This document shows, in pieces, positions 6,495 through 15,204 of a stretch of 39,745 nucleotides of DNA. This DNA is from a virus. The notes below the pieces were generated by a model. The model was not told where the DNA came from. It was given only the letters and a program-made list of their open reading frames with translations, and searched no databases. Each line of letters begins with the position of its first letter. The first letter of the stretch is position 1. The position numbers and the translations under genes are program-made. The stretch lies in the IMG/VR virus record IMGVR_UViG_3300031466_000008. The stretch is one strand, 5' to 3'.

Positions 6495-6901
6495 CCATGG
6501 ACAAGGAAAAGAAGATCGAGGAGATTAGGGGAGCGTTGAAAAAGATCGACCGTGGCGATTTTTCCGAGATCGCAGGGGCGCATGGGAAAGCAGGCGAATG
6601 GCTTCGGTTCCTGCTGGACGAACTGATAAAGACGCGCAATAGTTGGCTTTCTCCTGATACATCACAAAGGCTGATTGAAGACCTCATAGACAAAGTCGAG
6701 CGGATCAATAAGATGACGGAGGAACGAGACAAGCTGATCGAGGTGTTGCGGTGGTATGGGGATAGAGAAACATACGATGGGAACGTTGAATGGGATGATG
6801 ATGGAAATATTATTTGTGCAGAGTGGCCGCCCATTAACGTTGACAACGGACAACGCGCACGCGACATCCTGAAAGAAATCGGGGTGACGGTAGATGCCTG
6901 A
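6491..6901 (+). CDS. Hypothetical protein
   Basis: ATGA start/stop overlap with the HNH gene. GGAGGG RBS. Confidence 0.55.
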   Translation: MTMDKEKKIEEIRGALKKIDRGDFSEIAGAHGKAGEWLRFLLDELIKTRNSWLSPDTSQRLIEDLIDKVERINKMTEERDKLIEVLRWYGDRETYDGNVEWDDDGNIICAEWPPINVDNGQRARDILKEIGVTVDA

Positions 6902-7100
6902 ATTTACCCAGTTGCAGAAAGAAATCATCCGGTATATCCGCCGTGAACGTATCGCCATGCGCGAGGACATCATTCGTGATGTTTCGTATGACGCCTGCTG
7001 CACGAGGAAAGAAGTACAAGAACAGTTGTCCTATCTGCGAAAACACGGTTATGTTTGGCGGATTCCGGAGGGCTGGTATGAGACGGACGTTGACATTTAA
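6894..7100 (+). CDS. Hypothetical small (winged-helix-like) protein
   Basis: Tightly packed ORF. KEVQEQLSYLRKHGYVWRIPEG. Confidence 0.55.
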   Translation: MPEFTQLQKEIIRYIRRERIAMREDIIRDVSYDACCTRKEVQEQLSYLRKHGYVWRIPEGWYETDVDI

Positions 7101-8328: not shown

Positions 8329-8757
8329 GTGGGTGCGACCGTAAAACTTCACAAAAGCACGTTTCAGCATGTCGAAGCCGAATTGTACCGGTACCATGAA
8401 ACGAAAAGAGAAATCACCAGGATTAAAAACGACATCCTCTACGGGACAAGCCCGCCCGATGAGAACGTTGGTGGTGGTAGGAGTAACATTCCTGGTGATC
8501 CTACGGGGCGGGCCGGTACGCTACTTGCCTCATACCGACTTCTCCAACACATGGTAAGGGTAGTTGATGCGATCGAGACAATTTACAATCAACTTCCCGA
8601 AGAGAAAAAGAAACTGATAGAACTAAAATATTGGACCAAGTCTCAAGAATTAAGTTGGGACGGAATCGCCATGCAACTTCATGTTAGCAGGAACACGGCT
8701 ATTAACTGGCGCGACGAGATTGTACAAGCCATTGCTGAGCATCTTGGGTGGTGGTGA
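8329..8757 (+). CDS. RinA/ArpU-family late transcriptional activator (sigma region-4-like)
   Basis: VEAELYRYHETKREI... plus a C-terminal HTH, SWDGIAMQLHVSRNTAINWRDEIV. The position upstream of the late genes fits. Confidence 0.75.
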   Translation: MGATVKLHKSTFQHVEAELYRYHETKREITRIKNDILYGTSPPDENVGGGRSNIPGDPTGRAGTLLASYRLLQHMVRVVDAIETIYNQLPEEKKKLIELKYWTKSQELSWDGIAMQLHVSRNTAINWRDEIVQAIAEHLGWW

Positions 8758-8855
8758 TTTGTACTAATTTTGGACGCACAAAAAGAAAAAAATTTTAAAA
8801 TCTTATAATAAAGGGGGCGAAGCCCCCGAGGGCCAAACCCAAGGGGGCGCACCAC

Positions 8856-9536
8856 ATGGACAACGAATATAACGAAGTATATTTCTTCCCGTGTTGGAAG
8901 TGCGGTACGCCCGTTTCTTTAATGACCAGATACCCCATCCTCCGGGTGTTTTGCCCCGATTGCAAGGATGAGCATTTGGCAGAGAAAGAAGAAACATTGA
9001 AGCAATATATCAGACTCAAGACTTTGGTGATGCATGAAAGGGCCTTGCGGATTCTGGAAAAACAGGAAGCTCACTTATTCAAATACAAAGACGCTTCCGA
9101 AGCTGTGTTGGAATTTGCCCTGGATGATCCGGAGAAATTTGCTAGCTCCCACGAAATGATTGCCGCAATGGAATTGATCCGCAATGGCGTAAAGGTTAAG
9201 GTTCAGCAGAAAATCGGCAAACACCGCGTTGATTTCGTAATACCTGGGTTTAAAGTCGTGTTGGAAATAGACGGTTATATGCACGATTACCACAAGATCA
9301 AGGATAGTAAACGCGACATCGAATTGAGAAACGAGCTTGGTCCGGAGTGGGAAGTTGTCCGCATCCCGACCAAGTATATCGAACAAAACGCGGGTGCGCT
9401 TATATCAGCTATCAAGGCTGTCTACAAGTTCAAGCAAGACGCAAGAAAGGCGAACAATGGTGTTTTGCCAGAATGGTATTCAAGCAGGGAGAAAATGCAT
9501 TACGCTAAGCTCCTTGGCTCAAAGGCTAAGGCTTAG
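8856..9536 (+). CDS. Zn-ribbon plus DUF559/Vsr-like (PD-(D/E)xK) endonuclease-domain protein
   Basis: N-terminal CWKCG...CPDC. The C-terminal HRVDFVIPGFKVVLEIDGYMHDY...RDIELRNELGPEWEVVRI is typical of DUF559. The cassette is AT-richer than its surroundings. Confidence 0.7.
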   Translation: MDNEYNEVYFFPCWKCGTPVSLMTRYPILRVFCPDCKDEHLAEKEETLKQYIRLKTLVMHERALRILEKQEAHLFKYKDASEAVLEFALDDPEKFASSHEMIAAMELIRNGVKVKVQQKIGKHRVDFVIPGFKVVLEIDGYMHDYHKIKDSKRDIELRNELGPEWEVVRIPTKYIEQNAGALISAIKAVYKFKQDARKANNGVLPEWYSSREKMHYAKLLGSKAKA

Positions 9537-9740
9537 ATAAAAGAAGGCGTGCGCGGGAGTAAGCCGGTTGGCTCCCGCACGGGTAAAGTCTCCATGGATG
9601 CCTAGGGTGGGAGGCGGAGACTGAAACTGATCCGATTGGTGATTCTCCCGCCGCATCGTCCACGGCACTCTGTCCACGGATGGCGTGCAGGACGATATCC
9701 GGAGCGGCGGGAACATGAGGGATCGGGGATAGCCCGGTCG

Positions 9741-9856
9741 GGGATGCGGTGGCGAAATGGTGTAGACGTACAATGGGCACTAACGGACACGGTAAGGGTG
9801 CAGCCCCATGATTACCGCCCGTGTCATGCGGGGTGCAAATCCCTGCCCGCATCCCA
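9741..9856 (+). ncRNA. tRNA-like domain inside the RNA locus (not a canonical tRNA)
   Basis: GGGATGCGG 9741-9749 pairs with CCGCATCCC 9847-9855, and the strand ends in CCA. There is a T-arm-like hairpin GCGGGG-TGCAAAT-CCCTGC (9828-9846) and a D-loop-like AATGGTGTAG. The domain is 116 nt, too long for a tRNA. Confidence 0.4.
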
Positions 9857-10210
9857 ATATCGGTGATTCGCTCGTCTGACGCGCAACAATCGGCGCTAAT
9901 CCTAGGTTCAGACGGGCATCACATATAGCGACATGCGCCGGGTAACAGCAAGGTCAGCGTAAGGCTGGCAGCGTCATTCGGACGTGGGATCCTTGCTCCG
10001 GGGGTCGCAATCGCCGCCACTATATCCCGAAACCATGACCTCTTCGGTCGTGAGGAAATCCTTCCTTCCAGCGTGGGAGTAGGATAGGGAATAGGGCGGT
10101 GAAATCGGTGATTCTCCCGCCACAGACTCGTTTTTCCGTTCGTGTAGACGATGTGACAATTCGGGCGCATTTGTCGCCAGTGGCGGGGATCACATACAGA
10201 ACATACCACA

Positions 10211-10233
10211 GTCCGCATATCGCGGGCTTTTTT
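10211..10233 (+). terminator. Intrinsic terminator
   Basis: GTCCGC-ATATC-GCGGGC followed by TTTTTT. Confidence 0.75.
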
Positions 10234-10255
10234 ATTTGGAAAAGGGGGTGAGCGT

Positions 10256-11302
10256 GTGCAACGCAATTGGACAGATGATGAATACCAATACCTTCTTGAG
10301 TTGATGGAAAGATATCAAGATTGGACATACGCCCAATATGCGGAGGCGCTCGCCCATAGATTCGGGCGTGATTTCACAAGCGAGAGTGTCCGGAAAAAAT
10401 TGAAACGTGCCGGAGACCGGAAGGGTGCAGCGAGCTTCATCGACCGAAAAAACGCCGAGGAACACGATCCGGAAAGACTCTTGTTCGTGATGATCCGCGC
10501 CCAAAAAGAGTTCCAGGAAATCGATGACCGGCAGACGGCCGTGACGATTGACATTCAAGACGATAAGCCGATCGGTATATGCTTCTCGGGTGACTGGCAC
10601 ATCGGGGGATTATACACGGATCACGAGCAGTTGCTTCGAGACAGCGAATTGATCCGAGATACAGACGGTGTGTACAACATCCTCATGGGCGACTACTGCG
10701 ACAACTACATCACGCGTAGTCATGCTGGCGGCTCATTTGAGCAAGTTGTCACGGCAGACAAGCAGCGCGAGCTGTGCGAGTTCTTTTTCGTGCGCTACTA
10801 CAAACGCGGCAATTTGGCGGTACTCAAAGGTAACCACGACAACTGGGAGTACAAAGAAACAGGCGAAGACTTCATCAAGTATTTGGCGCGCCGCATCGAG
10901 TCTCCGTATTTGTGGTACGGCGGCCGGATTACGTTGCGTTTCGGAGATGCGACGTACAGGATCCAGGCGCACCACTCGTACCGGTACAACTCCAGTCTGA
11001 ACACGACGAACAGCCAACGGAACCTGTTCAACGCAACGCATGCGGACATCATCGCTCTGGGGCACGTACATACCAATGAGACGCATGCAAAGACGGTGGG
11101 TGGAATTGACACCGTCTGGATGCGGACGGGCAGCTACAAGATCACGGATGACTATTCTCAATGGCTCGGCGGTCTCAAGAGCGATGCGCGTGTGCCGATG
11201 TGCGTGCTGTTCCCGGATCGGAAGAAAATCGTGGACTTCCGCGATTTTCGAGATGGCATTGAGTATTTGGCGATGAAACGAGCGAATCTAGCGATGGCGT
11301 GA
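10256..11302 (+). CDS. Calcineurin-like metallophosphoesterase with an N-terminal Myb/SANT-like helix bundle
   Basis: GDWH, GDYCDN, GNHD and GHVH motifs in the canonical order. GTG start with an AAGGGGG RBS. Confidence 0.85.
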   Translation: MQRNWTDDEYQYLLELMERYQDWTYAQYAEALAHRFGRDFTSESVRKKLKRAGDRKGAASFIDRKNAEEHDPERLLFVMIRAQKEFQEIDDRQTAVTIDIQDDKPIGICFSGDWHIGGLYTDHEQLLRDSELIRDTDGVYNILMGDYCDNYITRSHAGGSFEQVVTADKQRELCEFFFVRYYKRGNLAVLKGNHDNWEYKETGEDFIKYLARRIESPYLWYGGRITLRFGDATYRIQAHHSYRYNSSLNTTNSQRNLFNATHADIIALGHVHTNETHAKTVGGIDTVWMRTGSYKITDDYSQWLGGLKSDARVPMCVLFPDRKKIVDFRDFRDGIEYLAMKRANLAMA

Positions 11303-11315
11303 GGAGGGATGAGTA

Positions 11316-11681
11316 ATGAACGGGCATCAACCGGATTACATGTCAGTTGGTAAACCGCCGAATTGCGGCAGCAGTATTATCAGAGGTATCGGCCCGGATA
11401 CACCAAAGGTCGTAAACAAAGAAGGCGGCTCACAATCGCATTTGCCATATCGTTTTGACTTGATCGACCCACAAGCAATCTTTGCACTTGCAGAGGTGCT
11501 TTATCAAGGATCGGAAAGACACGGAGAAGACAACTGGCGAAAGATACCGATCAATGACCATTTGAACCACGCACTCGCGCATATCTACGCATACATGGCC
11601 GGGGATGAACAGGACGATCACCTCGGCCATGCGTTTTGTCGGATGATGTTTGCGGTGGCGCTGGAGCGCGGGAATAAATAA
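11316..11681 (+). CDS. DUF5664-like / dNTP pyrophosphohydrolase N-terminal-like protein
   Basis: YGEDNWRK...HLNHALAHIYAYMAGDEQDDHLGHAFCRMMF resembles the all-alpha phage family. Assigned from memory only. Confidence 0.5.
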   Translation: MNGHQPDYMSVGKPPNCGSSIIRGIGPDTPKVVNKEGGSQSHLPYRFDLIDPQAIFALAEVLYQGSERHGEDNWRKIPINDHLNHALAHIYAYMAGDEQDDHLGHAFCRMMFAVALERGNK

Positions 11682-11687
11682 TCGATT

Positions 11688-13799
11688 TTGGAGAGTGGCG
11701 CGGCTTTGCGCTGCGATTTAAAGGTGGGGAGCGGAGAAGTGACATACAAGTTAATACATGGAGATTGTTTGGAAGAATTAAAAAAAATGCCTGATCATAG
11801 CGTTGATTCGGTTGTCACTGACCCGCCGTATGGCCTTTCGCAAGAACCGGATATCCGCGAAGTCTTAGAAAAATGGCTCGCGGGCGAAGATTATCACCAT
11901 CGTGGTGGCGGGTTTATGGGCAAAACGTGGGATTCGTTCGTGCCGGGTCCGGCGATTTGGCGGGAAGTCTACCGCGTGCTGAAACCTGGCGGCCATGCGC
12001 TTGTATTCGCCGGGACACGGACGCAGGATCTGATGACAACAGCGCTACGGCTGGCGGGTTTTGAGATTCGGGACGTCGTCGAATGGCTGTATTTCTCCGG
12101 CTTCCCGAAGTCGCTCGACGTAGGCAAGGCGTTCGATAAGCGAAAAGGCGGGGCGTCTTTCGTCCATGAGTTCGCGAAGCTGATAAAGAAAAAACGCCTA
12201 GAAAAAGGGTATTCGCTGGCATTTATGGATAAGGAGGTGTGCGGCGGAACGACAAATTATTCGTGGTTCGAGGGCAGACCGGCGGGTGTAAGGCTACCGC
12301 AATTAAAAGAGTATTACAAGATAAAGGAGCTATTAGACCTAGACGATACGTATGACGAAATGATGGAGGAAGCCGAGCGCGAGAAAATCGGCGAACGACA
12401 AAAGTTAGATACATTCGTTCGGAAGGGCGGTTATGTAGCGGGAGAAGCAGACGCGAGCCAATATGATAAAAAAGTGATCGACATCACCGCTCCCGCTACC
12501 GACCTTGCCAAAAAGTGGAGCGGATGGGGAACTGCTCTGAAACCGAGCCACGAGCCAATAATATATGCTCACAAACCATTTAATTCCGTTCCGTTTTCAG
12601 GTATAATGGAGGAGACAACAAGTCTCCTGGAGGTAGCGTTATGCCTGTTACTGTCAAGTGTGAATGGTGCGGAAAGGATTTTCAGGTTAAGCCCAAGCGA
12701 GTTAAACGGGGAGTCAGATTTTGCAGTTATGAGTGCCGCACTGCTTCATGGGGAAAGATCCGGCGAGTTAAAAGAGCTGATGGTTACATTCAACTCACCG
12801 GAAACGGTCTTAACGTGCTTGAACATCGCTACATTATGGAACAACATCTTGGAAGAAAGCTTGAAAAATGGGAGCATGTTCACCACAAAAACGGAGACAA
12901 GTCTGACAACCGCATTGAAAACCTTGAAATCCTTGTTATTTCCGATCACGCAAGAACCCACCATCAAGGCCGTGATGACAGCGCATGGGTTCGGCTTGAA
13001 TGTAAGCAGTGCGGAAAGGAATTTGAACGACGAAGGAAGGAATACGAGCGATATCCTGAAGCGTTTTGTAGCCATGAGTGCTACCTTGAGAACCGGAGAA
13101 AATGGTACACCTGCGAATATTGCGGTGAACGCTTTACGACTAATAACCCCAAGCGTCGTTTCTGTTCTCAAACATGTGCTAACCGAAATACAAACCAACA
13201 ACGCCGAAAAAAGTCCACTTGAACCCGCCCACGAACCCATCATCATGGTCCGCAAGCCGCTTGACGGAACCGTAGCGGACAACGTAGAGCGGTGGAGAAC
13301 GGGTGCGATTAATATCGATGCGTGTAGGGTGGGTGACGAGGAGCGTATCAATCAACCGGCTGCGAATAAACCGGGCGGAAATGCGTTAATGATGAGCGCG
13401 AAGGGTATGCCGCAGAACGCGGAAGCGCGGTTAGCTGTTGGCCGTTTCCCCGCGAACTGCGTCACGACGGAGCCGGACGCCTTTTTCTCGCCATATTTCA
13501 ACGTAACCCCGGAACACCTTTGTAAAAAGGCGAGCAAACGAGATCGAAACAGCGATTGGCGCGGTGAAGAAATCGGCGCGACCAACCGTCACCCCACCGT
13601 CAAGCCGACCGACCTGATGGCGTGGCTGGTGCGGTTGGTGACGCCGCCGGGCGGAGTCGTTCTCGACCCGTTCGCAGGCAGCGGTTCGACATTAGTAGCG
13701 GCACGGCGCGAGGGGTTCGGCTTTATCGGTATTGAGCGAGAAGCCGAATATATCGAGATTGCGGAAGCACGGACTGTCATCAAAGAGTCGTTCAAATGA
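11688..13799 (+). CDS. N6/N4 DNA methyltransferase (beta class) with a ~0.68-kb in-frame insertion; likely real start GTG 11739
   Basis: DPPY (VVTDPPYGL) near the N-terminus and HPTVKP...[11 protein letters not shown] near the C-terminus. The conserved LKPxHEPII..KP motif occurs twice (12537-12581 and 13218-13262). Confidence 0.85.
12641..13222 (+). CDS. HNH homing endonuclease nested in the -1 frame of the methyltransferase ORF
   Basis: Own GGAGG RBS 8 nt upstream. [43 protein letters not shown], flanked by CxxC Zn-ribbon repeats. Confidence 0.85.
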
Positions 13800-14866: not shown

Positions 14867-15204
14867 CCGACGGAAACCCGAACACACATTCTCAACATCG
14901 CTTTAACGCGATGAAGTATGACGCTTTAACGCGGTAAAGGGGTGGGGTCAAAAGTTTCAAGGCCCTTCCGAGGGACCGCTCCCCCACCCACACGCAAATT
15001 TTTTTCCCGAAATGAAAAGTTTTAAACTGGAGGATACGTAACTTGAGGAAGTTTTTAACAAGAATCATATGTGCCTTGGCCGGACATAAATGGGTTTTGA
15101 TGTGGCCGGCTTTGGGGCGGAGTAATTGTCAGAGATGCGGGGTTTTCAAAAAATGATGTGGTAATCGGATAAACAAACATATACGCCACTTAGGAGGTGA
15201 GCTC
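14867..15204 (+). other. Candidate cos / terminase recognition region
   Basis: 338-bp non-coding gap between the HNH gene and terS. CGCTTTAACGCG occurs twice, 23 bp apart (14899-14910 and 14922-14933). There is a GGGGTGGGG/CCCCCACCC inverted repeat and TGGCCGG twice. Confidence 0.4.

What the first reader, a model, noticed from the sequence alone, without database searches (positions are those of the whole stretch)
9537..10255. 0.7-kb ORF-free, highly structured RNA locus with an embedded tRNA-like domain
Nearly every other gap in this genome is under 100 bp. Here about 720 bp separate the DUF559-like nuclease gene from the phosphoesterase gene, and all six frames give only short R/P/G-rich junk ORFs.

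The stretch ends in a clean + strand intrinsic terminator (10211-10233). It is full of helices that I could pair by eye:
- a hairpin at 9548-9583
- AGTCTCC 9587-9593 with GGAGACT 9616-9622; this competes with GGCGGAGA 9613-9620 paired to TCTCCCGCC 9644-9652, so the two helices are mutually exclusive
- ATCGTCC 9655-9661 with GGACGAT 9690-9696
- CGTCTGA 9873-9879 with TCAGACG 9908-9914
- AGCAAGG 9947-9953 with CCTTGCT 9991-9997

Short modules recur. AT[TC]GGTGATTC occurs at 9635, 9859 and 10104. GGTGATTCTCCCGCC occurs at 9638 and 10107. GTGTAGACG occurs at 9760 and 10142.

Positions 9741-9856 form a tRNA-like module:
- a 9-bp terminal helix ending in CCA
- a T-arm-like hairpin with loop TGCAAAT
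- a D-loop-like AATGGTGTAG
- an oversized 57-nt core containing crossing, pseudoknot-like pairings (ATGGG 9773-9777 with CCCAT 9805-9809; GACACGG 9786-9792 with CCGTGTC 9819-9825)

Large ornate phage-borne RNAs such as GOLLD and ROOL are known to sit near or to include tRNAs, but I cannot assign this sequence to any family by eye.
Basis: partly seen in the sequence, partly recalled or inferred. Interest (0 to 1): 0.85.

Follow-up and report, generated by a model that had tools for sequence, protein, structure and literature searches.

The report
Shuffling array of phage small RNAs
The 0.7-kb gene-free stretch is not one giant RNA but a string of about nine independent, well-folded small-RNA modules at the head of a phage's late genes; one is a tRNA look-alike with a swappable middle, and two are the usual RNA partners of a candidate bacterial defence nuclease (DUF3800) that this phage does not encode.

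Summary
Window 9537-10255 is non-coding, strongly structured on the + strand, and ends in an intrinsic terminator. The "one large ornate RNA" reading does not hold.

- **Mosaic structure.** Related phage and metagenome loci carry the same pieces at 90-100% identity, but in different orders and combinations. The region is a concatenation of autonomous modules.
- **Position.** It lies downstream of a RinA-family late activator gene. In relatives it sits directly upstream of terS, so it is the late-operon leader.
- **Known module.** 9926-10015 is DUF3800-VII (Rfam RF02967, 67.5 bits).
- **"M8" (10011-10102).** Rfam does not match this module. Elsewhere, in 7 of 7 lineages examined, it is a stand-alone RNA gene convergent with a DUF3800 gene (PADLOC PDC-M04A). 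Those cassettes lack the usual protein partner, PDC-M04B.
- **tRNA-like element (9741-9856).** The acceptor, D and T arms covary. The core is replaced by about 16 unrelated inserts in different phages.
- **Other modules.** Two "GGUGAUUC...AUCACAUA"-clamped hairpins and several conserved hairpins.
- **No DUF3800 gene** was found in the window.

Best reading: a processed multi-sRNA array. Its DUF3800-partner RNAs plausibly act as decoys or antidotes against DUF3800 defence. That last step is inferred, with a probability of about 0.3.

The parts
8329..8757 (+). RinA-family late transcriptional activator gene (context: defines the start of the late region)
   Evidence: NCBIfam TIGR01636 phage_rinA, 87.6 bits against a cut-off of 31.9. 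PHROG 36 transcriptional regulator.
8758..8855 (+). Putative activator-dependent late promoter (TATAAT 8804-8809) followed by a 5' hairpin at 8813-8827. Inferred, not shown.
   Evidence: Sequence read. In relatives L012, L082, L011, L013, L031 and L001/L080, the array begins a few nt after an AT-rich stretch with direct repeats and a -10-like box just downstream of the rinA/arpU gene.
8856..9536 (+). DUF559-like endonuclease gene, inserted between the promoter region and the first RNA module. It is absent at this position in L012 and L082.
   Evidence: Pfam DUF559 E=1.5e-9. L012 and L082 go from the promoter-like stretch straight into the GAAGGYGTGCGCGGGAG module.
9547..9584 (+). Module M0: the 5'-proximal hairpin of the array
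   Evidence: Fold. 96-97% identical in L012 and L070. Present in L082 with a change that improves pairing.
9587..9622 (+). Module M1: hairpin AGUCUCC...GGAGACU
   Evidence: Fold. Conserved together with M0 in L012, L070 and L082. There is no covariation, because the sequence is invariant.
9646..9712 (+). Module M3: long hairpin with outer helix CCCGCCGC/GCGGCGGG and inner helix AUCGUCC/GGACGAU
   Evidence: z = -4.6. 10 distinct variants in 10+ loci keep both helices through wobble or compensatory changes. It is present without the upstream GGCGGAGA.
9721..9739 (+). Module M4: short hairpin GAUCGGG-GAUAG-CCCGGUC. It usually precedes the tRNA-like element.
   Evidence: Found in front of the tRNA-like element in window, L003, L008, L012, L023, L024, L029, L031 and L033, and separated from it in L044.
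9741..9856 (+). tRNA-like scaffold. It has a 9-bp acceptor-like helix (9741-9749 with 9847-9855), a class-II-type D arm, a T arm with loop UGCAAAU and a discriminator A at 9856. The hypervariable core (about 9770-9825) takes the place of the anticodon and variable arms.
   Evidence: Scaffold alignment A3: 18 pairs, 96.8% paired, 6 pairs with compensatory changes, 0/500 shuffles. About 16 unrelated cores sit in the same scaffold. The L062 core is homologous to the window core and carries a compensatory change. ARAGORN and the Rfam tRNA/tmRNA models do not call it.
9863..9922 (+). Module M6: clamped hairpin (GUGAU-UC-helix ... helix-AUCAC, followed by AUAUAG)
   Evidence: z = -3.5. A homologue is in L082. 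Same clamp architecture as 10108-10193 and as modules in L003, L013, L049 and L077 whose inner helices are unrelated but complementary.
9926..10015 (+). DUF3800-VII RNA (Rfam RF02967)
   Evidence: 67.5 bits against gathering 36.2, model positions 1-90 of 90, E=5e-12. Also found in L003, L008, L010, L011, L053, L082 and L173.
10011..10102 (+). Module M8: three-way-junction RNA with conserved junction CCGAAACCAUGACC...GGUCGUGNGGAA...AUAGGG. Elsewhere it is the RNA partner of a DUF3800 gene.
   Evidence: z = -5.2. Alignment A6: 24 pairs, 94.7% paired, 9 pairs with compensatory changes, 0/500 shuffles. The covariance model scores the window copy at 91.3 bits. No Rfam match. Adjacent to and convergent with DUF3800 genes in L083/L079/L198, L081 and L200-L204.
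10108..10193 (+). Module M10: second clamped hairpin (GUGAU-UC-UCCCGCCAC ... GUGGCGGGG-AUCAC, followed by AUACAG)
   Evidence: z = -2.6. 98% identical in L044, L070, L053 and L056; 84% in L049. L070 joins 9542-9655 directly to 10104-10196, which is recombination at the repeated GGTGATTCTCCCGCC.
10210..10235 (+). Intrinsic terminator closing the array. The next gene's RBS and start codon follow within 20 nt.
   Evidence: Terminator scan. The same sequence, CAGTCCGCATATCGCGGGCTTTTT, closes arrays of different content in 8 viral contigs and is followed directly by RBS plus terS in L008, L011, L012 and L013.

Best explanation
Window 9537-10255 is the non-coding leader of the phage late transcription unit. 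It is built as an array of about nine autonomous structured small-RNA modules.

**Shown**
- Each module is a separate family with its own conserved fold.
- Modules are exchanged, deleted and re-ordered between related phages. Short conserved boundary sequences (GGUGAUUC..., ...AUCACAUAYAG) mark at least one recombination junction (seen in L070).
- The array follows a RinA/ArpU-type activator gene. It ends at a conserved intrinsic terminator that abuts the next gene.
- Two modules (DUF3800-VII and M8) belong to RNA families that elsewhere accompany DUF3800 genes. This phage has no DUF3800 gene.

**Inferred**
1. The array is transcribed from the activator-dependent late promoter at about 8800, through the inserted DUF559 gene.
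2. Most transcripts stop at 10235, and some read through to express the downstream late genes.
3. The precursor is cut into stable small RNAs. RNase P and RNase Z would cut at the tRNA-like element, as for the genuine tRNAs that flank it in sister phages. Other nucleases would cut at the conserved clamps.
4. The released RNAs act in trans as protein ligands.

**Most likely job of the DUF3800-type modules.** They mimic the resident RNA partner of DUF3800 (RNase-H-like, PADLOC PDC-M04A) defence or addiction cassettes carried by hosts and rival prophages, and so neutralise them. This would be an RNA antidote or decoy. The swappable cores and the module shuffling would then reflect an arms race.

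**Layered confidence**
- Modular array of independent structured RNAs: about 0.9.
- Late-leader transcript processed into trans-acting sRNAs: about 0.55.
- Anti-DUF3800 decoy function: about 0.3.
For: **Mosaicism**
- BLAST tables give these examples:
  - L003 has 9923-10119 before the 9707-9757 segment.
  - L008 has DUF3800-VII, then M4, then a tRNA-like element with another core, then the same terminator.
  - L070 fuses 9542-9655 to 10104-10196.
  - L012 is 97% identical over 9542-9740 and 9824-9862 but has an unrelated core in between.

**Module folds**
- DUF3800-VII scores 67.5 bits.
- tRNA-like scaffold covariation.
- M8 covariation and covariance model.
- M3 variants and clamp family.
- Invariant or frequent G-U pairs fit the + strand only, for example M8 columns 27/41 U-G in 11 of 11 sequences.

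**Setting**
- A RinA-family gene lies upstream.
- In relatives the terminator is followed directly by terS.
- Genuine tRNA genes flank the tRNA-like element in L033, L055 and L078.

**Autonomy of M8.** It has its own -35/-10 and T-run in L081 and L200-L204.

**DUF3800 link**
- M8 lies immediately 3' of, and convergent with, a DUF3800 gene in 7 of 7 distinct lineages. These are Kyrpidia, Pseudalkalibacillus, Halobacillus, Paenactinomyces and Laceyella genomes plus two prophage types.
- These proteins hit PADLOC PDC-M04A at E=1e-42 to 1e-44.
- Canonical PDC-M04 loci in defence islands have an A+B protein pair and no M8.
- The M8 cassettes have no B homologue.
- No DUF3800 (A) homologue is found in the window or in any array locus.
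- The protein-facing conserved junction of M8 is identical in cassette copies and phage-array copies.
- An M8-carrying array phage (L024) and an M8-DUF3800 prophage (L081) come from the same metagenome, 3300025530.
Against: **Missing data**
- There is no expression or processing data. The promoter, the readthrough and the RNase cuts are all inferred.
- The host of this phage is unknown, so it is not shown that it meets DUF3800 systems.

**Limits of the DUF3800 link**
- Only 2 of about 9 modules have a DUF3800 link.
- The tRNA-like element was not found next to DUF3800 genes in the four distant loci checked (L072, L076, L077, L078).
- Whether the partner RNA inhibits, activates or guides DUF3800 is unknown. 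If it activates, a phage would not benefit from carrying it.

**Points that favour other readings**
- Late expression is an odd time for an anti-defence factor.
- A terminator with no promoter between it and the late genes also fits a purely cis-regulatory leader.

**Statistical limits**
- Much of the family sampling comes from a few related compost-type metagenomes. Several modules are nearly invariant, so their helices are supported by conservation and energy rather than by covariation.
Confidence: 0.5

Rival explanations
1. **Cis-acting late-operon leader.** The structured RNA and its terminator form an attenuation or antitermination device, comparable in layout to lambda PR'-6S RNA-tR' read through by Q (from memory). 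It would time or dose expression of the packaging and morphogenesis genes. The modules would be RNA elements that modify RNA polymerase or recruit an antiterminator.
For: - The array sits between a RinA/ArpU activator gene with its promoter-like stretch and the late genes.
- The same terminator closes arrays of different content. It is followed within about 20 nt by the RBS of terS, or here of the phosphoesterase gene, with no room for a promoter.
- The first modules, M0 and M1, are constant among arrays that share this RinA type.
Against: - Module content between M0/M1 and the terminator is highly variable and re-ordered. That is hard to reconcile with one cis mechanism.
- M8 works as a free-standing gene with its own promoter, next to DUF3800 genes in chromosomes and on a plasmid-like contig.
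- DUF3800-VII is an Rfam family defined outside this context.
- Genuine tRNA genes occupy the same leader in sister phages. This shows the leader is a parking place for trans-acting RNA genes.
- This reading is not mutually exclusive with the best explanation for M0/M1 and the terminator.
Confidence: 0.25
2. **Reverse direction (bait model).** The modules serve the phage's own late functions, for example by binding a phage late protein. DUF3800 cassettes have copied one module (M8) as bait. A phage protein that binds the bait would release or activate the DUF3800 nuclease.
For: - The same evidence links M8 to DUF3800 cassettes and to phage leaders.
- M8 replaces the protein partner PDC-M04B. 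This fits a sensor or regulator role.
- M8 occurs in leaders of distant phages, such as Geobacillus phage PK3.6. A phage-intrinsic function would produce that pattern.
Against: - M8 is absent from many sister arrays (L008, L012, L029, L031), so it is not essential for the phage late programme.
- No candidate phage protein partner has been identified.
Confidence: 0.15
3. **One large ornate RNA** of about 0.7 kb (GOLLD/ROOL-like) that folds and acts as a unit.
For: - The stretch is long, ORF-free and highly structured, and it is phage-borne.
- tRNA-related sequence is embedded in it, as is reported near GOLLD and ROOL (from memory).
Against: - No GOLLD, ROOL or other large-RNA model matches, even at E<=10.
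- The centroid fold has only local hairpins.
- Segments occur independently, in other orders, and singly.
Confidence: 0.03
4. **Decaying remnant** of a phage tRNA gene cluster, or other non-functional filler. Alternatively, a short protein-coding gene that was missed.
For: - The tRNA-like element has lost its anticodon arm.
- Real tRNAs occupy the same place in relatives.
- ORFs of 76-115 aa exist in the stretch.
Against: - Compensatory changes keep the helices in the scaffold and in M8.
- Modules are 90-100% conserved across contigs whose neighbouring cores are unrelated.
- The ORFs have no family hit, and public gene calls leave the gap empty.
Confidence: 0.04

Closest known systems
DUF3800-associated RNA motifs (Weinberg et al. 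2017, PMC5737381; Rfam DUF3800-I, -VII, -IX ...)
   Same: - One module is a full-length DUF3800-VII.
- M8 shows the defining behaviour of the class: a structured RNA next to a DUF3800 gene, in either orientation, often followed by a terminator.
- The paper reports 11 dissimilar structures that share the DUF3800 association, as seen here.
   Different: - Here the RNAs are orphaned. No DUF3800 gene is in the 39.7-kb phage.
- They are strung together with unrelated modules in the late-operon leader.
- M8 matches no Rfam 15 model. Whether it equals one of the published motifs that are not in Rfam could not be checked, because the supplement is not held.
Phage tRNA gene clusters and their tRNA-like stable RNAs (e.g. 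T4 species 1 and 2 RNAs; from memory)
   Same: - A tRNA-shaped element with an acceptor helix, D arm and T arm.
- It lies in a polycistronic non-coding stretch.
- Genuine tRNA genes flank it in sister phages (L033, L055, L078).
   Different: - There is no anticodon arm. ARAGORN and the Rfam tRNA model reject it.
- The acceptor-like helix is 9 bp, and the T loop is mostly UGCAAAU (G at position 55).
- The middle is replaced by about 16 unrelated structured inserts of 3 to about 150 nt.
tmRNA and other tRNA-like structures (topology only)
   Same: The 5' and 3' ends form an acceptor/T-arm tRNA-like domain. A foreign body is inserted between the D-arm region and the T arm.
   Different: - No tmRNA call from ARAGORN or Rfam.
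- No conserved tag reading frame. A 12-codon frame shared by the window and L062 is broken by an in-frame stop in a third variant preserved as a CRISPR spacer.
- G3-U70 is present only in some members.
GOLLD and ROOL large phage-associated RNAs
   Same: Phage-borne, long, non-coding, structured, and near tRNA-type sequence.
   Different: No model match. The region is not one conserved architecture but an array of exchangeable modules.
RNA antidotes and decoys used by phages: pseudo-ToxI against ToxIN, and RNA anti-CRISPRs (solitary repeat units). From memory; this is a functional analogy only.
   Same: A phage carries, without the protein, copies of the RNA partner of a host defence or toxin protein.
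   Different: - Nothing is known about how DUF3800 uses its RNA.
- The modules here are complex folded RNAs, not short repeats.
- The function is untested.
Lambda late leader (PR'-6S RNA-tR'; from memory)
   Same: An activator or antiterminator gene, then a promoter, then a non-coding transcript ending at a terminator directly before the late genes.
   Different: The leader here is 3-4 times longer, is made of exchangeable structured modules, and includes families that exist as independent genes elsewhere.

Membership tests
DUF3800-VII RNA (Rfam RF02967) | Covariance-model score at or above the curated gathering score, over the full model | tested here: met
   9926-10015 on the + strand: 67.5 bits against 36.2, model positions 1-90 of 90, E=5e-12.
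DUF3800-VII RNA (Rfam RF02967) | A DUF3800 protein gene nearby (the association that named the motif; not required by the model) | tested here: not met
   No DUF3800 among the Pfam hits of the window proteins. tblastn with four DUF3800 proteins finds nothing in the window.
M8 / DUF3800-partner RNA (family defined here) | Three-way-junction fold with the conserved junction sequence, scored by a covariance model | tested here: met
   Window 10011-10102: 91.3 bits, full length. The window copy was in the seed alignment. Independent copies (L003, L053, L056, L080, L082) score 86-91 bits.
M8 / DUF3800-partner RNA (family defined here) | Lies convergent with a PDC-M04A-type DUF3800 gene | tested here: not met
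   Met in 7 of 7 cassette lineages. Not met in the window or in other phage arrays.
tRNA | Detected by ARAGORN or the Rfam tRNA model; cloverleaf with a 7-nt anticodon loop | tested here: not met
   ARAGORN finds 0 genes in the window. No tRNA hit at E<=10 in 9000-10800. There is no anticodon stem-loop in the core.
tRNA | Acceptor helix, D stem with a GG-containing loop, and T stem with a 7-nt T loop (U54...A58, C56) | tested here: met
   Alignment A3 and pair counts. The T loop is UGCAAAU in most members, UUCAAGU in L024 and UUCGAUU in L044.
tmRNA | tmRNA call with a tag peptide frame | tested here: not met
   ARAGORN finds none and Rfam finds none. The candidate 12-codon frame is not conserved.
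GOLLD / ROOL / other large ornate RNAs | Match to the family covariance model; one conserved multi-domain architecture | tested here: not met
   No hit at gathering or at E<=10. Relatives show a mosaic arrangement.
   All 4227 Rfam families were scanned. Apart from three sub-threshold chance-level hits, only DUF3800-VII is reported.
Rho-independent terminator | GC-rich hairpin followed by a U-run on the transcribed strand | tested here: met
   10210-10228 (7 bp, 5 of them GC) followed by TTTTTTATTT. Conserved in 8 viral contigs.
Type III toxin-antitoxin-like or RNA-antidote system (functional analogy) | The RNA binds and inhibits the partner nuclease | not testable with these tools
   Only the genomic association is shown.

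The most novel reading that the evidence does not exclude
The locus would be an RNA-based anti-defence island: a recombining cassette array in the phage late leader.

- It stockpiles orphan copies of the RNA partners of DUF3800 (RNase-H-like, PDC-M04A) defence nucleases.
- It also carries a tRNA-derived display scaffold whose core is swapped among phages.

If true, the enigmatic DUF3800 RNA motifs would be antitoxin-like regulators that can stand in for the PDC-M04B protein. Phages would counter whole families of RNA-dependent defences with modular RNA decoys.
Probability: 0.25. Interest if true: 0.9.

Novelty: new variant of a known kind. Interest (0 to 1): 0.74.

Why it matters
**An open question becomes testable.** The DUF3800 RNA motifs have had no function since they were described in 2017. 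The DUF3800 domain keeps turning up in retron, Cas12a2/a3 and defence-island contexts (PMC7736814, PMC10910872, PMC13594972).

This locus adds three concrete handles:
1. An RNA not matched by Rfam (M8) occupies the place of the protein partner in a PDC-M04-type DUF3800 cassette.
2. Phages carry that RNA and DUF3800-VII without the protein. This gives a direct genetic test of whether the RNA is an inhibitor.
3. Phage late leaders can be exchangeable arrays of structured RNA cassettes. One of them is a natural tRNA scaffold that carries about 16 unrelated inserts, the same design used artificially to express recombinant RNAs.

**Cultured material exists.** Geobacillus phage vB_GthS_PK3.6, Gordoniibacillus kamchatkensis VKM B-2647 and Laceyella sacchari all carry relevant elements.

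Tried and rejected
- **Single large RNA.** No Rfam large-RNA match and mosaic relatives.
- **Protein coding.** The internal ORFs have no Pfam hit. Public gene calls leave the gap empty.
- **Genuine tRNA or tmRNA.** Rejected by ARAGORN and Rfam. A 12-codon frame shared by the window and L062 cores looked tag-like. A third variant, preserved as CRISPR spacer sp_7153, has an in-frame stop.
- **Antisense regulator of phage genes.** No complementarity beyond chance elsewhere in the window.
- **DUF3800 gene hidden in the phage.** None found. Caveat: the batch Pfam summaries list only the top 25 families, so the array-locus check rests mainly on tblastn.
- **tRNA-like element next to DUF3800 genes.** Not seen in L072, L076, L077 or L078.
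- **PDC-M04B partner next to M8 cassettes.** None found.
- **Looser DUF3800-VII pattern scan.** It returned 119 mostly chance loci. Only L173 was a new true member.
- **Phage GenBank search.** It gave only a 47-nt match, to Geobacillus phage PK3.6. That match later proved to be M8.
- **Literature.** No description of these arrays, of the tRNA-like scaffold or of PDC-M04 was found. The Weinberg supplement is not held, and one 2026 preprint that mentions DUF3800 could not be read.
- **Host identification by exact protein look-up.** It gave only metagenome sources.
Full report
**1. Observation**

- The stretch 9537-10255 lies between a DUF559-like gene (8856-9536) and an HTH-metallophosphoesterase gene (10256-11302).
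- Its internal ORFs have no family hit. Independent gene calls on public copies of the same phage leave the gap empty.
- It folds better than shuffled controls: z = -3.8 on the + strand and -2.9 on the - strand.
- It ends in a clean terminator at 10210-10235.
ATYGGTGATTC occurs 3 times in the window, all here, against 0.09 expected.
- ARAGORN finds no tRNA or tmRNA.
- Rfam finds exactly one family: DUF3800-VII at 9926-10015 (67.5 bits, gathering 36.2). Nothing else turns up even at E<=10.

**2. Setting**

- The window is a temperate siphovirus of Bacillota. It has a serine integrase, an S24 repressor, ERF, SSB, RusA, HNH, terS, terL and a portal protein.
- It is probably JGI metagenome contig 3300033752 Ga0373396_001143, which has the same length and the same gene order around the locus.
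- The gene at 8329-8757 is a RinA-family late activator.
- In close relatives (L012, L082) the array starts a few nucleotides after an AT-rich, repeat-bearing, -10-containing stretch that follows rinA.
- In the window, a DUF559 endonuclease gene has been inserted between that stretch and the first module.
- In relatives the same terminator is followed within about 20 nt by the RBS of terS.
- The array is therefore the leader of the late operon. The promoter and the readthrough are inferred.

**3. It is a mosaic, not one RNA**

I retrieved related loci from IMG/VR, JGI metagenomes and GTDB genomes by pattern scans. They share segments of the region at 90-100% identity, but in different orders and subsets.
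- L003 has DUF3800-VII plus M8 upstream of the M4/tRNA-like segment.
- L008 has DUF3800-VII, M4, a tRNA-like element with another core, and then the terminator.
- L012 equals the window over 9542-9740 and 9824-9862, with an unrelated core in between.
- L070 joins 9542-9655 directly to 10104-10196, exactly at the repeated GGTGATTCTCCCGCC.
- L011 has an HNH gene in front of the terminator.
- The centroid fold contains only local hairpins.

**4. The modules**

(a) **M0 and M1** (9547-9584 and 9587-9622) are 5' hairpins. They are constant among arrays that share this RinA type.

(b) **M3** (9646-9712) is a long hairpin with z = -4.6. Ten sequence variants keep both helices.

(c) **M4** (9721-9739) is a short hairpin that usually precedes the tRNA-like element.

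(d) **The tRNA-like scaffold** (9741-9856).
- Across 14 distinct scaffolds, 18 pairs are 96.8% paired. Six pairs have compensatory changes, for example:
  - acceptor GGGAUGCGG/CCGCAUCCC becomes AAUAUGCGG/CCGCAUAUU in an Alkaliphilus MAG;
  - D stem GCG/CGC becomes GAG/CUC or UCG/CGA;
  - T stem GCAGGG/CCCUGC becomes GCAAGG/CCUUGC.
- 0 of 500 shuffles reach the observed values.
- From memory, the D arm resembles bacterial class II tRNA-Leu.
- The T loop is a proper T loop except for G at position 55 in most members.
- The space for the anticodon and variable arms holds about 16 unrelated structured cores of 3 to about 150 nt.
- The window core recurs only in L062, with a compensatory change in GACACGG/CCGTGTC. 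The crossing helix ATGGG/CCCAT is only partly kept.
- In L033 an HNH ORF sits in the D loop.
- Real tRNA genes flank the element in L033, L055 and L078.

(e) **Two clamped hairpins**, M6 (9863-9922) and M10 (10108-10193).
- They share an invariant base (GUGAU...AUCAC), a 2-nt bulge, and an inner helix that differs completely between members yet is always complementary.
- They also share a conserved 3' tail, AUAYAG.

(f) **DUF3800-VII** (9926-10015).

(g) **M8** (10011-10102) has z = -5.2. It has 24 pairs that are 94.7% paired, 9 with compensatory changes, and 0 of 500 shuffles reach the observed values. The covariance model scores it at 91.3 bits.

(h) **The terminator** closes the array.

Invariant G-U pairs fit the + strand only.

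**5. The DUF3800 link**

- M8 also occurs alone, with its own -35/-10 and T-run. It lies immediately 3' of, and convergent with, a 240-276-aa gene that Pfam calls DUF3800 (33.6 bits in L083) and PADLOC calls PDC-M04A (E=1e-42 to 1e-44).
- I collected homologues of that protein and read their contexts in Kyrpidia, Pseudalkalibacillus, Halobacillus (a Rep3 plasmid-like contig), Paenactinomyces and Laceyella.
- Every one has an M8 gene in the same place. With the two prophage types, that makes 7 of 7 lineages.
- More distant PDC-M04A genes sit in defence islands, next to type I R-M, GmrSD and a reverse transcriptase. They are followed by an overlapping PDC-M04B gene and have no M8.
- The M8 cassettes have no B homologue.
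- M8 therefore occupies the place of the protein partner.
- Neither the A nor the B protein is encoded in the window or in any array locus.
- DUF3800-VII, which by its published definition is also DUF3800-associated (PMC5737381), again sits in a late leader in L173, upstream of HNH-terS-terL, with no adjacent DUF3800 gene.

**6. Mechanism**

- *Shown:* an array of autonomous, structurally conserved RNA modules in the late-leader position, closed by a conserved terminator. Two modules are orphan partners of DUF3800 proteins.
- *Inferred:* late-promoter transcription; partial termination; processing at the tRNA-like element by the tRNA maturation enzymes and at the clamps by other RNases; and trans action as protein ligands.
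- *Preferred function:* for the DUF3800-type modules, neutralising DUF3800 cassettes of hosts or rival prophages by mimicking their RNA partner (about 0.3).
- *Rivals:* a purely cis attenuation or antitermination leader (0.25; compatible with M0/M1 and the terminator), and a bait model in which the defence cassette copied a phage RNA (0.15).
- DUF3800 is described as RNase-H-like and is linked to retrons and Cas12a2/a3 (PMC7736814, PMC10910872, PMC13594972). Its use of RNA is unknown.

**7. Comparison and novelty**

- One module is a known Rfam family.
- M8, the clamp hairpins, M3 and the tRNA-like scaffold match nothing in Rfam 15.
- M8 might equal a published DUF3800 motif that is not in Rfam. 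I could not check this.
- The library searches turned up no description of three things: the array organisation, the orphan status of the DUF3800 RNAs, and the tRNA scaffold with swappable cores.
- I rate the locus a new variant of a known kind.

**8. Limits**

- There is no expression data.
- Sampling is biased to related compost-type metagenomes.
- Search patterns fixed parts of the scaffold sequence.
- Several helices are invariant, so they are supported only by conservation and folding energy.
- The host is unknown.

Noticed in passing
L066 (metagenome contig Ga0065720_1022139), whole locus: A CRISPR array of 125 repeats (GTTTGTATCGTACCTATGAGGAATTGAAAC) carries many spacers against this phage group. 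Targets include the tRNA-like 5' part (sense), its 3' part (sense), the window-type core (antisense), the late-promoter region, and window 10703-10723 and 10796-10821. Spacers in both orientations fit DNA targeting.
   Followed up: partly
L200-L204, L081, L083 compared with L211, L212, L214: The PADLOC candidate system PDC-M04 comes in two forms. The A+B protein pair sits in defence islands. A Bacillales form has A (DUF3800) plus a convergent structured RNA gene (M8) and no B.
   Followed up: yes
window 8856-9536: A DUF559/Vsr-like endonuclease gene sits exactly between the late-promoter stretch and the first RNA module. It is absent there in L012 and L082 and looks like a mobile-endonuclease insertion.
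   Followed up: partly
L033 924-1572: An AT-rich HNH-endonuclease ORF, apparently frameshifted, is inserted in the D loop of a tRNA-like element that otherwise has almost no core. Genuine tRNA-Met and tRNA-Thr genes flank it.
   Followed up: partly
L077 5556-5664 (Gordoniibacillus kamchatkensis NZ_JXAK01000003): The core of this tRNA-like scaffold itself contains a sequence that the Rfam tRNA model scores at 33.3 bits: a tRNA-like element nested in a tRNA-like element.
   Followed up: no
L003 1077-1147 (-) and L004 11397-11467 (+): A twister-sister ribozyme (Rfam RF02681, 61 bits) lies about 1.2 kb upstream of the RNA array, on the opposite strand, in a related phage.
   Followed up: no
window 14867-15204: A second sizeable non-coding gap (338 bp) lies between the HNH endonuclease gene and terS. 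It has a direct repeat of CGCTTTAACGCG (about 14900 and 14923) and a GC-rich palindromic stretch. It is possibly the cos/terS-binding region.
   Followed up: no
window 10256-13799: Directly after the terminator come three genes: a metallophosphoesterase with an N-terminal HTH, a protein with a dATP/dGTP diphosphohydrolase N-terminal domain (PF18909), and a 703-aa DNA methylase. The same trio follows the array region in L062-type loci and in Geobacillus phage PK3.6. It may be a nucleotide or DNA-modification moron block.
   Followed up: no
L082 about 6880-6990 of the reverse strand as displayed; L033 780-885: Another recurring module has a canonical T-arm-like hairpin (GGUUCGAGUUCC) enclosed by CCCGAU...AUCGGG. 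This suggests a second tRNA-derived module type in these arrays.
   Followed up: no
L024 and L081 (both from metagenome 3300025530): An array phage carrying orphan M8 and a prophage carrying the M8-DUF3800 cassette occur in the same sample.
   Followed up: no
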